Of a stretch of DNA of 64,000 nucleotides, positions 40,001 to 42,316 are shown piece by piece; positions within the stretch are counted from its first letter, which is position 1, and each line of letters opens with the position of its first letter. The position numbers were made by a program. The stretch comes from Escherichia coli 042 (GTDB lineage: Bacteria > Pseudomonadota > Gammaproteobacteria > Enterobacterales > Enterobacteriaceae): assembly GCF_000027125.1 (NCBI RefSeq), contig NC_017626.1, one strand, 5' to 3'.

Positions 40001-42316
40001 ATCTTGTGGCGATCCTCAAAACGCTGGGGGCAGGGCGAGCGCAACTGCGTAAGCTAATCGTCGGTCAGTGGTTGATGGTGCTGGCGCTTTCAGCCGTTAC
40101 CGGCGGGGCGATAGGCCTGTTGTTCGAAAACGTGTTGATGGTGCTGCTCAAGCCCGTTCTGCCTGCTGCACTACCGCCTGCCAGCCTCTGGCCGTGGCTG
40201 TGGGCGCTGGGCACCATGACGGTCATCTCGCTGCTGGTGGGGCTACGACCGTACCGCCTGTTGTTGGCAACGCAGCCTTTACGCGTATTGCGTAATGATG
40301 TGGTCGCGAACGTCTGGCCGCTCAAGTTTTATCTGCCGATTGTCAGTGTGGTGGTTGTGCTGCTGCTCGCCGGATTAATGGGCGGCAGTATGCTGCTCTG
40401 GGCGGTGCTGGCGGGCGCGGTAGTGCTGGCTTTGCTGTGCGGTGTGCTGGGCTGGATGCTGCTGAATGTACTTCGCCGCATGACGCTGAAATCGCTACCT
40501 CTGCGCCTGGCGGTTAGCCGCCTGTTACGTCAGCCGTGGTCAACGTTAAGCCAGCTTTCGGCATTTTCGCTCTCCTTTATGCTACTGGCACTGCTGCTGG
40601 TGTTGCGTGGCGATCTGCTCGACCGCTGGCAGCAGCAGCTACCGCCAGAAAGCCCGAACTACTTTTTAATCAACATCGCCACAGAACAGGTTACACCGCT
40701 AAAAGCGTTCCTCGCGGAACATCAGATAGTCCCGGAATCATTTTATCCGGTGGTGCGGGCGCGGCTGACGGCGATTAACGACAAGCCGACAGAAGGCAAT
40801 GAAGATGAGGCGCTTAACCGCGAACTCAATCTTACCTGGCAAAATACGCGGCCCGATCATAATCCGATTGTTGCCGGTAACTGGCCGCCAAAAGCCGATG
40901 AAGTGTCGATGGAAGAGGGGCTGGCGAAACGCTTAAACGTTGCCCTCGGAGATACCGTGACTTTTATGGGCGATACCCAGGAGTTCCGCGCTAAAGTGAC
41001 CAGCCTGCGCAAAGTGGACTGGGAAAGTCTGCGGCCTAATTTCTATTTTATTTTCCCGGAAGGGGCATTAGACGGGCAGCCGCAGAGCTGGCTTACCAGT
41101 TTCCGCTGGGAGAATGGCAACGGCATGTTGACGCAACTCAACCGCCAGTTCCCGACCATTAGCCTGTTAGACATTGGCGCGATTTTAAAACAGGTCGGCC
41201 AGGTGCTGGAGCAGGTAAGTCGGGCGCTGGAAGTGATGGTGGTGCTGGTCACCGCCTGCGGTATGTTGCTGTTGCTGGCACAGGTGCAGGTGGGAATGCG
41301 TCAGCGTCATCAGGAGCTGGTGGTGTGGCGCACACTCGGTGCGGGGAAAAAACTACTACGCACGACATTGTGGTGTGAGTTCGCCATGCTCGGGTTTGTT
41401 TCTGGCCTGGTGGCCGCAATTGGTGCGGAAACGGCGCTGGCAGTGTTGCAGGCGAAAGTGTTTGATTTCCCGTGGGAGCCAGACTGGCGATTGTGGGTTG
41501 TGCTGCCGTGCAGCGGTGCGCTGCTGCTGTCGCTTTTCGGCGGCTGGCTGGGTGCGCGACTGGTTAAGGGTAAGGCGCTGTTCAGGCAGTTTGCGGGGTG
41601 ATGACAGGCGTTAGATTGCCTGATGCGCTACGCTTAACAGGCCCACGAGGATCGTGCAATATATTGATTTTGCAAGATTGTGTAGGCCGGATAAGGCGTT
41701 TACGCCGCATCTGGCATGAACAGTGTGCATTTTGGCAATAAATATGAAACCAACTGTCATGTCGGTTTTTTTAAAGGCCGAAGGTGGTAAACCTTCGGCC
41801 TTAGCTACGTTTCCTCAGTTATTCAATAAACTGACGGATCAGTTCCAGCAGCGCGATTAGCGCCTTAAGAACGATGAGAACTTTATCGAGAAAAGTTTTC
41901 ATCCGTTGCTCCCTTAAGGGAGAAAGACAATCACAGCTTACCCTTACGTTGCCTGTAACTATGATTTTCTTCATGTGCTAGATGAGGACTGCCTCTCTCC
42001 AAATTAGAGCACCAGAATCAGCACCACCTGTATCCTGACCAGGACTTAAAAGTACTTTTCCGCACTGCGGTAATCCCTTGAGGCAGTATCACTACTAGCG
42101 TCGGGATTGTATCGCCAACATAGCTGTTTGAATATGTAGGCATCCTGACTTATAATTCACTTGCTAGATGAGGACTGTTTCATTTCTACCCGGAACCACC
42201 AAGTCTTGGGCGGAAAAAATAAAAAAACCGACTGTCATGTCGGTTTTTTTATATCTGTATTCTGGTGCAACCATTCTGTTCTCACGACAATCGCCGTTTC
42301 AGAATACCGTCCATCA

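What the first reader, a model, noticed from the sequence alone, without database searches (positions are those of the whole stretch)
41602..42313. Empty Rhs attachment region between ybbP and selU
In E. coli K-12 the ybbP-selU interval holds the RhsD element and associated ORFs. Here ybbP and selU are separated by only ~710 bp containing a BIME, terminators and the candidate toxin/sRNA pair. No Rhs core or tip sequence (no long GC-rich YD-repeat ORF) is present. The site is therefore either the ancestral unoccupied state or a clean excision.
Basis: partly seen in the sequence, partly recalled or inferred. Interest (0 to 1): 0.4.

Follow-up and report, generated by a model that had tools for sequence, protein, structure and literature searches.

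The report
Rhs-free ybbP–selU spacer holds toxin–antitoxin cassette
The gap between ybbP and selU does lack the RhsD element that K-12 carries there, but it is not empty: it holds a repeat element plus a small DinQ-like toxin/antisense-RNA cassette, one of at least four alternative fillings of a known variable spot in E. coli, so this is ordinary strain-to-strain variation.

Summary
ybbP (39187-41601, +) and selU/mnmH (42314-43408, -) converge across 712 bp. No Rhs sequence is found anywhere in the 64-kb window. K-12 MG1655 does carry rhsD-ybbC-ylbH-ybbD-ylbI-ylbG in this interval.

- **Not an attachment site.** K-12 and the window lose homology 6 nt after the ybbP stop codon and regain it at the selU stop codon. 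The whole spacer is swapped, and the toxin/sRNA module is not retained in K-12.
- **Not empty.** The spacer is a BIME (41602-41729) plus a 570-bp insertion (41730-42299). The insertion carries a dinQ-like (dql) type I toxin gene and an AgrB-family antisense sRNA.
- **Not ancestral.** The ancestral form appears to be a BIME-only spacer of 58-251 bp, found in about 570 E. coli genomes and in E. albertii.

Among 5426 complete E. coli genomes:

| Spacer content | Genomes |
|---|---|
| RhsD-type junction | 2865 |
| dql cassette | 1325 |
| Short spacer without cassette | about 574 |
| Hcp-Tle1/DUF2931 type VI effector island | 574 |

A comparison of HS with K-12 shows that the alleles are exchanged by homologous recombination within ybbP and selU. 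Nothing supports a clean Rhs excision. All the components belong to known families, so interest is low.

The parts
39187..41601 (+). ybbP, ABC transporter permease; left conserved flank of the variable spacer
   Evidence: NCBIfam NF041854, 1458 bits. Homology to K-12 runs to 41607.
41602..41729 (.). BIME: REP at about 41617-41646, IHF-consensus site at 41657-41669 (minus strand AATCAATATATTG), and an inverted REP at 41682-41716. This is the ancestral part of the spacer.
   Evidence: Shared with E. albertii and with the BIME-only E. coli alleles. REP matches occur at a median of 15 places per genome. Sub-threshold Rfam hits to the REP-derived families naRNA4 and ES036. The IHF consensus match is read directly from the sequence.
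41730..42299 (.). 570-bp insertion relative to the BIME-only alleles: the dql/AgrB-like type I toxin-antitoxin cassette with its flanking terminators
   Evidence: Alignment of 12 alleles. Present in 1325 of 5426 genomes and always chromosomal. Pairwise diversity is 0.0056 here against 0.027 and 0.044 in the flanking 1 kb.
41747..41773 (+). Left copy of the agr-type terminator (CCAACTGTCATGTCGG + T7). It is a 27-nt direct repeat (40 nt at 83%) of the copy at 42225-42251, and probably terminates ybbP.
   Evidence: Repeat family D1. The simple scan lists this hairpin on the minus strand only. blastn self-matches.
41774..41802 (-). dql transcription terminator hairpin (AAGGCCGAAGGT/ACCTTCGGCCTT), in the same position as the K-12 dinQ terminator
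   Evidence: Inverted repeat I3. Fold z-score -5.6. Alignment to K-12 dinQ.
41819..41902 (-). dql toxin ORF, 27 aa, MKTFLDKVLIVLKALIALLELIRQFIE. PGAP annotates the in-frame 51-aa form at 41819-41974 as 'dinQ'.
   Evidence: NF041472 toxin_DinQ, 40.9 bits, cut-off 30. RefSeq annotation in identical strains. Aligns with K-12 DinQ.
41906..41925 (-). Palindrome CUCCC-UUAA-GGGAG that can sequester the Shine-Dalgarno sequence of dql
   Evidence: Inverted repeat I5. The hairpin is present in the minimum-free-energy and centroid folds. The analogous SD hairpin is described for dinQ (PMC5066626).
41970..41991 (-). Predicted sRNA target in the dql 5' UTR: a 22-nt direct DNA repeat (20 of 22) of the region spanning the start of the AgrB-like gene
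   Evidence: Repeat family D2. It aligns with the agrB-complementary stretch of K-12 dinQ.
42128..42156 (+). Sigma-70 promoter of the AgrB-like sRNA (TTGAAT, 17 nt, TATAAT; 10 of 12 matches)
   Evidence: It is the only promoter-like site found in the spacer.
42164..42252 (+). AgrB-family antisense sRNA (predicted antitoxin), ending in a bidirectional terminator at 42219-42252 that also serves selU
   Evidence: Rfam RF02891, 48.1 bits, gathering score 40, full-length match to model positions 1-84. Fold z-score -4.0. Terminator scan on both strands.
42314..43408 (-). selU/mnmH, tRNA 2-selenouridine synthase; right conserved flank
   Evidence: NF008749, 753 bits. Homology to K-12 resumes at about 42302-42312.

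Best explanation
The interval between the convergent core genes ybbP and selU is a multi-allelic variable spacer, not an Rhs attachment site.

The window carries one of at least four alternative fillings. Its spacer is the ancestral BIME plus a derived 570-bp cassette. The cassette encodes a DinQ-like (dql) membrane toxin and a divergently transcribed AgrB-family antisense RNA. The other fillings are:
- a BIME-only spacer, which is the truly unoccupied and probably ancestral form;
- the 7.3-kb RhsD island of K-12;
- a roughly 4-kb Hcp-Tle1/DUF2931 type VI effector island.

Alleles are interconverted by homologous recombination with crossovers inside ybbP and selU, which swaps everything between the two stop codons. 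This lineage most likely never held RhsD.

By homology to dinQ/agrB, the cassette should work as a type I toxin-antitoxin. The full-length dql mRNA would be translationally inert because its Shine-Dalgarno sequence is in a hairpin. The sRNA would pair with the 5' UTR target and block translation or trigger cleavage. Unlike dinQ, the cassette has no LexA box, so SOS control is not expected.

Shown here: the anatomy, the allele classes and their counts, the junctions, the recombination tract, and family membership of the peptide and the sRNA. Inferred: the direction of change (BIME-only first), the absence of any Rhs history, and the regulatory mechanism.
For: - **Flanking genes and K-12 order:**
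- **Junctions:** homology to K-12 ends at 41607 and resumes at about 42302-42312, and no part of the spacer occurs in the K-12 interval. The same stop-to-stop replacement holds for the Hcp island.
- **Allele counts in 5426 genomes:** 2865 with the K-12-type ybbP-rhsD junction; 1899 with a gap of 1 kb or less, of which 1325 carry the cassette; 574 with the Hcp junction. ST131 carries the Hcp island.
- **Ancestral form:** E. albertii and E. coli LR-60 share the same four-REP BIME-only spacer and the same junction GTGCA|CAGAA. Other Enterobacteriaceae have gaps of only 22-92 bp or unrelated genes.
- **Cassette is young:** diversity is 0.0056 in the cassette against 0.027-0.044 in the flanks, with sharp edges. 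The canonical dinQ locus is not similarly conserved. This fits a cassette younger than its flanks.
- **Recombination:** HS and K-12 are 100% identical except about 1.5 kb of ybbP and 0.8 kb of selU next to their different alleles.
- **Family membership:** DinQ HMM, AgrB covariance model, 22-nt target repeat, homology to K-12 dinQ-agrA along the whole cassette, SD hairpin and terminators.
- **Literature:** the dql family is defined in PMC5066626. rhs position 3 is inferred to have arisen late (PMC2935791).
Against: - The ancestral-state inference rests on few outgroups. Among non-E. coli Escherichia, E. albertii is BIME-only, E. whittamii and MOD1-EC7003 carry the Hcp island, and E1V33 carries the cassette. 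The polymorphism therefore crosses species, and E. fergusonii, E. marmotae and E. ruysiae were not recovered.
- No core-genome tree was built, so phylogroup distribution comes from a handful of named strains.
- The complete-genome collection is clinically biased, so the counts are not population frequencies.
- The origin of the 27/40-nt terminator duplication that flanks the cassette core is unresolved. The single-terminator allele of a divergent Escherichia strain (L006) could be either a precursor or a deletion scar.
- No promoter for dql was found by the consensus scan.
- No expression or toxicity data exist for this cassette.
Confidence: 0.85

Rival explanations
1. First reader, option a. 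The 712-bp spacer is the ancestral, unoccupied state of the site, into which the Rhs element was later inserted in the K-12 lineage.
For: RhsD at this position is inferred to be a late acquisition (PMC2935791). The window has no Rhs trace. The BIME part of the spacer is shared with E. albertii.
Against: The spacer contains a 570-bp block absent from E. albertii and from about 574 short-spacer E. coli genomes. That block is far less diverse than its flanks, which fits a recent gain. K-12 retains neither the BIME nor the cassette on either side of its island, so K-12 is not 'this spacer plus an insertion'.
Confidence: 0.08
2. First reader, option b. The site once held RhsD, which was cleanly excised.
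For: None directly. Jackson et al. describe rhs gene loss among related strains such as K-12, HS and ATCC 8739.
Against: No Rhs, YbbC, YlbG or island DNA is found anywhere in the window. The K-12 island annotation shows no integrase, and the island junctions show no flanking repeats. Excision from a K-12-type allele cannot create the BIME and the dql cassette. HS and ATCC 8739 carry the full cassette allele, and in HS it lies within a short recombination tract. That is replacement, not deletion.
Confidence: 0.02
3. The dql cassette allele is the ancestral Escherichia state, and the BIME-only spacers (and the single-terminator allele L006) are deletion derivatives.
For: The cassette core is flanked by 27/40-nt direct repeats, which favour deletion. 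L006 looks like exactly that deletion product. An internal 108-bp deletion variant exists in about 200 genomes, so decay does occur. The cassette is also present in another Escherichia species, E1V33.
Against: The BIME-only junction GTGCA|CAGAA lies outside the direct repeats and is identical in E. coli and E. albertii. Cassette diversity is 5-8 times lower than that of the flanks, while the canonical dinQ locus shows no such constraint. The L006 remnant differs by about 8% from the cassette alleles, which is older than the cassette's own diversity allows.
Confidence: 0.08
4. The cassette is a small mobile unit that inserts at this terminator site-specifically or by Campbell-type integration. 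It was acquired repeatedly, rather than spreading from a single insertion by flanking homologous recombination.
For: The diversity valley has sharp edges at the insertion boundaries. The core is flanked by a terminator duplication. Homologues at 60-80% identity are common on conjugative plasmids (1661 records).
Against: No recombinase is present. The cassette was seen only at this site (1331 places in 1325 genomes, all chromosomal). No near-identical copy was found on a true plasmid. A single insertion followed by recombination in the flanks explains the same pattern.
Confidence: 0.07

Closest known systems
RhsD element of E. coli K-12 (rhs 'position 3' of Jackson et al. 2009; Rhs elements of C. 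W. Hill's laboratory)
   Same: It occupies the same chromosomal interval between ybbP and selU/ybbB. Its presence or absence among E. coli strains is already documented.
   Different: The window contains no Rhs sequence. The two alleles share nothing between the two stop codons, so they are alternative fillings rather than occupied and empty forms of one site.
dinQ-agrAB type I toxin-antitoxin locus of K-12 (Weel-Sneve et al. 2013) and the dql (dinQ-like) family (Kristiansen et al. 2016, PMC5066626)
   Same: A 27-aa hydrophobic peptide that matches the DinQ model. A divergent AgrB-family sRNA with the same type of terminator. An sRNA-complementary stretch in the toxin 5' UTR. An SD-sequestering hairpin. 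The same overall layout, with alignable sequence along the whole cassette.
   Different: It lies at a different chromosomal site (ybbP-selU rather than gor-arsR). It has one agr gene instead of two. It has no LexA box. The peptide C-terminus is shorter and different. It is present in only about a quarter of complete E. coli genomes.
Hcp-ET (Hcp with C-terminal toxin extension) effector/immunity islands of type VI secretion (described by Ma et al. 2017, cited from my own knowledge)
   Same: It is another alternative filling of the same spacer, in ST131, E302 and E. whittamii, and again replaces everything from stop codon to stop codon.
   Different: It is absent from the window. It encodes a secreted interbacterial toxin with immunity genes, not an intracellular toxin-antitoxin.
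Chromosomal hot spots of gene flux between conserved core genes (general concept, from my own knowledge of comparative-genomics work on E. coli integration hot spots)
   Same: Several unrelated cargoes sit at one interval bounded by core genes, are exchanged by flanking homologous recombination, and are associated with raised diversity in the adjacent gene ends.
   Different: Nothing unusual. This is a small example whose cargoes are all toxin systems.

Membership tests
Rhs element | Long GC-rich core ORF (about 1200 aa) with YD repeats | tested here: not met
   No ORF longer than 51 aa lies in the spacer. tblastn of K-12 RhsD against the whole window found nothing. Spacer GC is 44% against 64% for the rhsD core.
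Rhs element | AT-rich tip, downstream immunity gene or dissociated tips, or any remnant of the K-12 island | tested here: not met
   blastn of the 7.3-kb K-12 island and tblastn of YbbC and YlbG against the window found nothing. blastn-short found only chance matches of 13 nt or less.
Site-specific attachment site (att) with insertion and excision | Island flanked by direct repeats of a core site, a recombinase nearby, and an empty site equal to the occupied site minus the island | tested here: not met
   The K-12 island has no integrase annotated and shares no junction repeats. The window's spacer (BIME plus cassette) is absent from K-12 rather than split by the island. The HS/K-12 flanks show a homologous recombination tract.
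DinQ/Dql type I toxin | Small hydrophobic peptide matching the DinQ profile, with an SD and a start codon | tested here: met
   NF041472, 40.9 bits, cut-off 30. DqlB model NF041473 scores 24.5 bits, below its cut-off of 35. AAGGGAG lies upstream of the ATG.
DinQ/Dql type I toxin | LexA operator at the promoter (defines dinQ proper as damage-inducible) | tested here: not met
   No CTG-N10-CAG occurs in the spacer. In the alignment, the K-12 LexA box region is interrupted by a 7-nt gap and substitutions.
DinQ/Dql type I toxin | Toxicity of the peptide and its repression by the sRNA | not testable with these tools
   This needs expression and growth assays.
AgrB antisense sRNA (Rfam RF02891) | Sequence and structure match above the gathering score, with its own promoter and terminator | tested here: met
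   48.1 bits against a gathering score of 40, model positions 1-84. Promoter with 10 of 12 matches. Terminator and fold z-score of -4.0.
AgrB antisense sRNA (Rfam RF02891) | Complementarity of the sRNA 5' end to the toxin 5' UTR | tested here: met
   A 22-nt direct DNA repeat (20 of 22) at 41970-41991 and 42156-42177, which makes the two opposite-strand transcripts complementary. The pairing can extend through G-U pairs, read from the sequences printed.
BIME / REP | Inverted pair of REP palindromes, repeated around the genome | tested here: met
   REPs at about 41617-41646 and 41682-41716. Matches occur in 5425 of 5426 genomes at a median of 15 places. Copy number varies between alleles: 2, 4 or 6 REPs.

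The most novel reading that the evidence does not exclude
The 570-bp dql/AgrB-like cassette is a young selfish module that entered the ybbP terminator with a 27-40-nt duplication. It then swept across divergent Escherichia backgrounds. It may persist because the toxin-antitoxin penalises replacement of its allele by the competing RhsD or Hcp-Tle1 islands, that is, post-segregational killing acting against allelic replacement at a chromosomal hot spot.
Probability: 0.1. Interest if true: 0.5.

Novelty: already known. Interest (0 to 1): 0.15.

Why it matters
This corrects a tempting misreading. Absence of an island relative to K-12 does not mean that a site is empty or ancestral.

Practical points:
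- The locus is a usable four-state strain marker (RhsD, dql cassette, Hcp-Tle1 island, BIME-only).
- RefSeq labels the toxin 'damage-inducible DinQ' although no LexA box is present.
- The cognate sRNA was not annotated in any of the records inspected.

Biologically, the locus is a clean small example of alternative toxin cargoes being exchanged by homologous recombination between convergent core genes. Nothing here challenges current understanding.

Tried and rejected
- **Rhs remnants.** Sensitive blastn-short of the spacer against the K-12 interval gave only chance matches of 13 nt or less. RhsD, YbbC, YlbG and Hcp-ET proteins and the island DNA gave no hits against the whole window.
- **LexA box.** There is no exact CTG-N10-CAG. 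The three one-mismatch hits lie in the sRNA promoter or the tail, not upstream of dql.
- **dql promoter.** The consensus scan found none. Manual candidates were weak and are not reported as features.
- **RNA duplexfold of the full sRNA against the full mRNA** gave over-extended structures. These were not used quantitatively. Only the repeat-defined complementarity is claimed.
- **Single-terminator 242-bp allele (L006).** All 40 best rows in the 5426 genomes were multi-piece (2 or 3) matches to cassette alleles. The allele is therefore rare or absent in that collection, and its role as precursor or scar stays open.
- **Literature.** Searches for ybbP, rhsD, selU and Hcp-ET found no paper that describes the cassette as an alternative to RhsD at this site. 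A type I toxin-antitoxin BLASTn survey (PMC11264685) does not mention the locus.
- **Peptide homologue search** gave only E. coli near-identical sequences and Salmonella and other relatives at 71-74% identity. No donor was identified.
- **Other Enterobacteriaceae.** The 377-381-aa ORF next to ybbP in Citrobacter and Enterobacter matched no NCBIfam model, and the Citrobacter ORF matched no Pfam family.
- **Sub-threshold Rfam hits** (STnc370, OrzO-P, mir-509, RNAI and others) were rejected as terminator-driven or chance matches.
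Full report
**1. The observation**

ybbA (38504-39190), ybbP (39187-41601, +), selU/mnmH (42314-43408, -) and allS (43477-44403, -) were identified with NCBIfam equivalog models well above their cut-offs. The spacer is 41602-42313, 712 bp.

No Rhs sequence is present. The longest ORF in the spacer is 51 aa. RhsD, YbbC, YlbG and Hcp-ET proteins and the whole 7.3-kb K-12 island gave no hit anywhere in the 64-kb window.

**2. What the spacer contains**

*BIME, 41602-41729.* Two inverted REPs flank an IHF-consensus site (read). REP-derived matches occur at a median of 15 places per E. coli genome.

*A 570-bp block, 41730-42299,* absent from the BIME-only alleles. It contains the following, in order:
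- an agr-type terminator (41747-41773);
- the dql terminator hairpin (41774-41802);
- a 27-aa ORF on the minus strand (41819-41902) that matches the DinQ model at 40.9 bits against a cut-off of 30. PGAP annotates it as 'dinQ' in near-identical genomes;
- an SD-sequestering palindrome (41906-41925);
- a 22-nt stretch (41970-41991) repeated at 42156-42177;
- a promoter with 10 of 12 consensus matches (42128-42156);
- an AgrB-family sRNA (42164-42252; Rfam RF02891, 48.1 bits against a gathering score of 40). It ends in a bidirectional terminator and folds better than shuffled controls (z = -4.0).

The block aligns along its whole length with the K-12 dinQ-agrA unit. It lacks the LexA box: no CTG-N10-CAG is present, and the box region is disrupted in the alignment. 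It therefore belongs to the dinQ-like (dql) family of Kristiansen et al. 2016 (PMC5066626), not to dinQ proper.

**3. Junctions with K-12**

Homology with MG1655 stops at 41607, 6 nt after the ybbP stop codon. It resumes at about 42302-42312, at the selU stop codon. Nothing from the spacer (BIME, terminators, toxin or sRNA) is present in the K-12 interval.

The two alleles are alternative fillings, not one site with and without an insertion.

**4. Allele classes**

Counts in 5426 complete E. coli genomes:

| Allele | Genomes | Source |
|---|---|---|
| K-12-type ybbP-rhsD junction | 2865 | |
| ybbP-selU gap of 1 kb or less | 1899 | |
| - of these, with the cassette | 1325 | |
| - of these, without the cassette | about 574 | |
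| Hcp-Tle1/DUF2931 island junction | 574 | |
| Unclassified | about 88 | by subtraction |

- Of the 1325 cassette alleles, 1124 are near full length. About 200 carry an internal deletion, such as the 108-bp deletion in L091 that removes the toxin start and the sRNA target.
- The cassette-free short spacers are BIME-only, of 58, 140 or 240 bp (L090, L089, L088).
- The third island encodes a 667-aa Hcp-Tle1 fusion plus three or four DUF2931 genes. It is the allele of ST131.
- The Hcp island also replaces the spacer from stop codon to stop codon.
- The collection is clinically biased, so these are counts, not population frequencies.

**5. Which form is ancestral**

A scan of species-representative genomes with the YbbP C-terminus was analysed.

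- E. albertii has a 251-bp BIME-only spacer. It has the same four-REP architecture and the same junction (GTGCA|CAGAA) as E. coli LR-60.
- E. whittamii carries the Hcp island, and MOD1-EC7003 has an Hcp-ET fragment at a contig end.
- Escherichia sp. E1V33 carries the cassette at 98.5% identity over the 712-bp spacer.
- A divergent strain (L006) has the BIME plus a single terminator, that is, the 570-bp block minus the 478 bp between the direct repeats.
- More distant genera have gaps of 22-92 bp (Atlantibacter, Trabulsiella, Buttiauxella), or unrelated genes such as a MetQNI-like transporter in Citrobacter, with an ORF set of similar sizes in Salmonella.

Convergent adjacency with a short spacer is thus the old condition.

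The cassette is far less diverse than its surroundings. Among five independent alleles, pairwise diversity is 0.0056 within 41730-42299. It is 0.030 in the adjacent BIME and 0.027 and 0.044 in the flanking 1 kb. The canonical dinQ-agrAB locus shows no such conservation: it is at least 99% identical to K-12 in only 624 genomes, against 2981 for the neighbouring gor gene. The simplest reading is a single, fairly recent insertion whose flanks have since been reshuffled by recombination.

Jackson et al. 2009 independently inferred that rhs at this position arose after the split from the B2-like group, by duplication of another rhs locus (PMC2935791).

**6. How alleles are exchanged**

HS carries the cassette and K-12 carries RhsD. 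Both belong to phylogroup A, to my knowledge. In 500-bp windows they are 100% identical on both sides. The exceptions are the last 1.5 kb or so of ybbP (99.4, 98.6 and 97.4%) and the last 0.8 kb or so of selU (95.5% in the selU-end window, 99.4% in the next), next to the alternative alleles. This is a homologous recombination tract that carries a different filling. No recombinase, attachment repeats or target duplications are involved.

**7. Verdict on the interpretation**

- 'No Rhs here, RhsD in K-12' is right.
- 'Attachment region' is the wrong model.
- 'Ancestral unoccupied' is wrong for this allele, because it carries a derived toxin-antitoxin cassette. It is still probably true that RhsD was never here.
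- 'Clean excision' has no support, and it cannot generate the observed spacer.

**8. Predicted mechanism of the cassette**

This part is inferred by homology to dinQ/agrB.
- The primary dql mRNA would be translationally silent because the SD sequence is in a hairpin.
- A processed form would be translated into a single-pass membrane peptide.
- The AgrB-like RNA would pair with the 5' UTR target, restore SD sequestration and promote RNase III cleavage.
- With no LexA box present, the 'damage-inducible' label is unsupported for this copy.
- Distant homologues (60-80% identity) are common on conjugative plasmids: 1661 records.

**9. Open points**

- The origin of the 27/40-nt terminator duplication around the cassette core is unresolved.
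- Whether the L006 single-terminator allele is a precursor or a deletion scar is unresolved. Its remnant differs by about 8% from the cassette alleles, and it was not seen among the best hits in complete genomes.
- The dql promoter was not located.
- No donor of the cassette was found.

**10. Novelty**

RhsD presence or absence, the dql family, Hcp-ET islands, BIMEs and recombination-driven hot spots are all described. I found no paper in the searchable library stating that the cassette is an alternative to RhsD at this site, but that is a small descriptive addition. Interest is low.

Noticed in passing
window 41863-41970 equivalent; L091:3718-3795: About 200 of the 1325 cassette-bearing E. 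coli genomes have an internal deletion. In L091 it is 108 bp, between GATGAG microhomologies. It removes the dql start codon, the SD sequence and the sRNA target but keeps the AgrB-like gene, leaving an orphan antitoxin. PGAP still calls the truncated ORF 'dinQ'.
   Followed up: partly
L005:12301-16522; L095:7501-12397; L008:11201-14781: A third filling of the same spacer: a 667-aa Hcp fused to a Tle1-like phospholipase domain, plus 3-4 DUF2931 genes. It is present in 574 genomes including ST131, and in E. whittamii. In these alleles selU is 1107 nt long with a different 3' end.
   Followed up: partly
L090:3501-3558 (E. coli EC69): A 58-bp spacer that looks like a hybrid. The first 30 nt or so match the left junction of the Hcp island (half of its terminator hairpin) and are fused to the last 16 nt of the BIME-only allele. 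This suggests loss of an island by illegitimate recombination.
   Followed up: no
window 41730-42299 versus flanks: There is a sharp diversity valley: pairwise diversity of 0.0056 in the cassette against 0.027-0.059 immediately outside it, among five independent alleles including another Escherichia species. The canonical dinQ-agrAB locus is not similarly conserved.
   Followed up: yes
window 41990-42127 (minus strand): No LexA box and no consensus sigma-70 promoter was found upstream of dql. Relative to the K-12 dinQ promoter/LexA region there is a 7-nt gap. The RefSeq product name 'damage-inducible type I toxin DinQ' is therefore a family label only.
   Followed up: partly
window 42164-42252: The AgrB-family sRNA scores above Rfam's gathering threshold. 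It is not annotated in any of the RefSeq records inspected (L002, L003, L004, L087, L092, L093), where only the toxin CDS is annotated.
   Followed up: no
L006:11204-11445 (E. coli strain SCPM-O-B-8794, flanks 92-94% identical to the window): A 242-bp spacer made of the BIME plus a single agr-type terminator and the cassette's right tail. That is the 570-bp block minus the 478 bp between the direct repeats. The remnant differs by about 8% from the cassette alleles. It was not seen among the best hits in 5426 complete genomes.
   Followed up: partly
L093:18501-21500 versus L094 (HS versus K-12): HS and K-12 are 100% identical around the locus, except about 1.5 kb of the ybbP 3' end and 0.8 kb of the selU 3' end next to their different alleles. 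This is a recombination tract. Other short diverged patches lie further away, for example in copA and gcl.
   Followed up: partly
window 41602-41729; L003:12301-12620; L088:3501-3740: The number of REP units in the BIME varies between alleles: 2 in the window, 4 in LR-60 and E. albertii, and 6 in 23CRST046. This gives spacers of 712 or 913 bp with the same cassette.
   Followed up: no
window 42310-42322: There is a cluster of lineage-specific substitutions at the very 3' end of selU (T/C at 42310, CA/TG at 42318-42319). They distinguish the window's lineage from all the other cassette alleles examined.
   Followed up: no
L015:11390-15330; L036:9774-12309; L050:11386-12531: In Citrobacter the ybbP-selU interval holds an uncharacterised 377-aa ORF and a MetQ/MetN/MetI-like ABC transporter. 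Salmonella arizonae has ORFs of matching sizes (276, 350 and 219 aa) that were not run against any family library. Enterobacter has a 381-aa ORF with no NCBIfam match. The interval is therefore variable across the family.
   Followed up: partly
L001:11646-12017 (K-12 ylbG): The gene at the right edge of the K-12 RhsD island, ylbG, has winged-helix HTH_29/HTH_28 domains of the kind found at transposase N-termini. The island's right boundary may have been shaped by an IS fragment.
   Followed up: no
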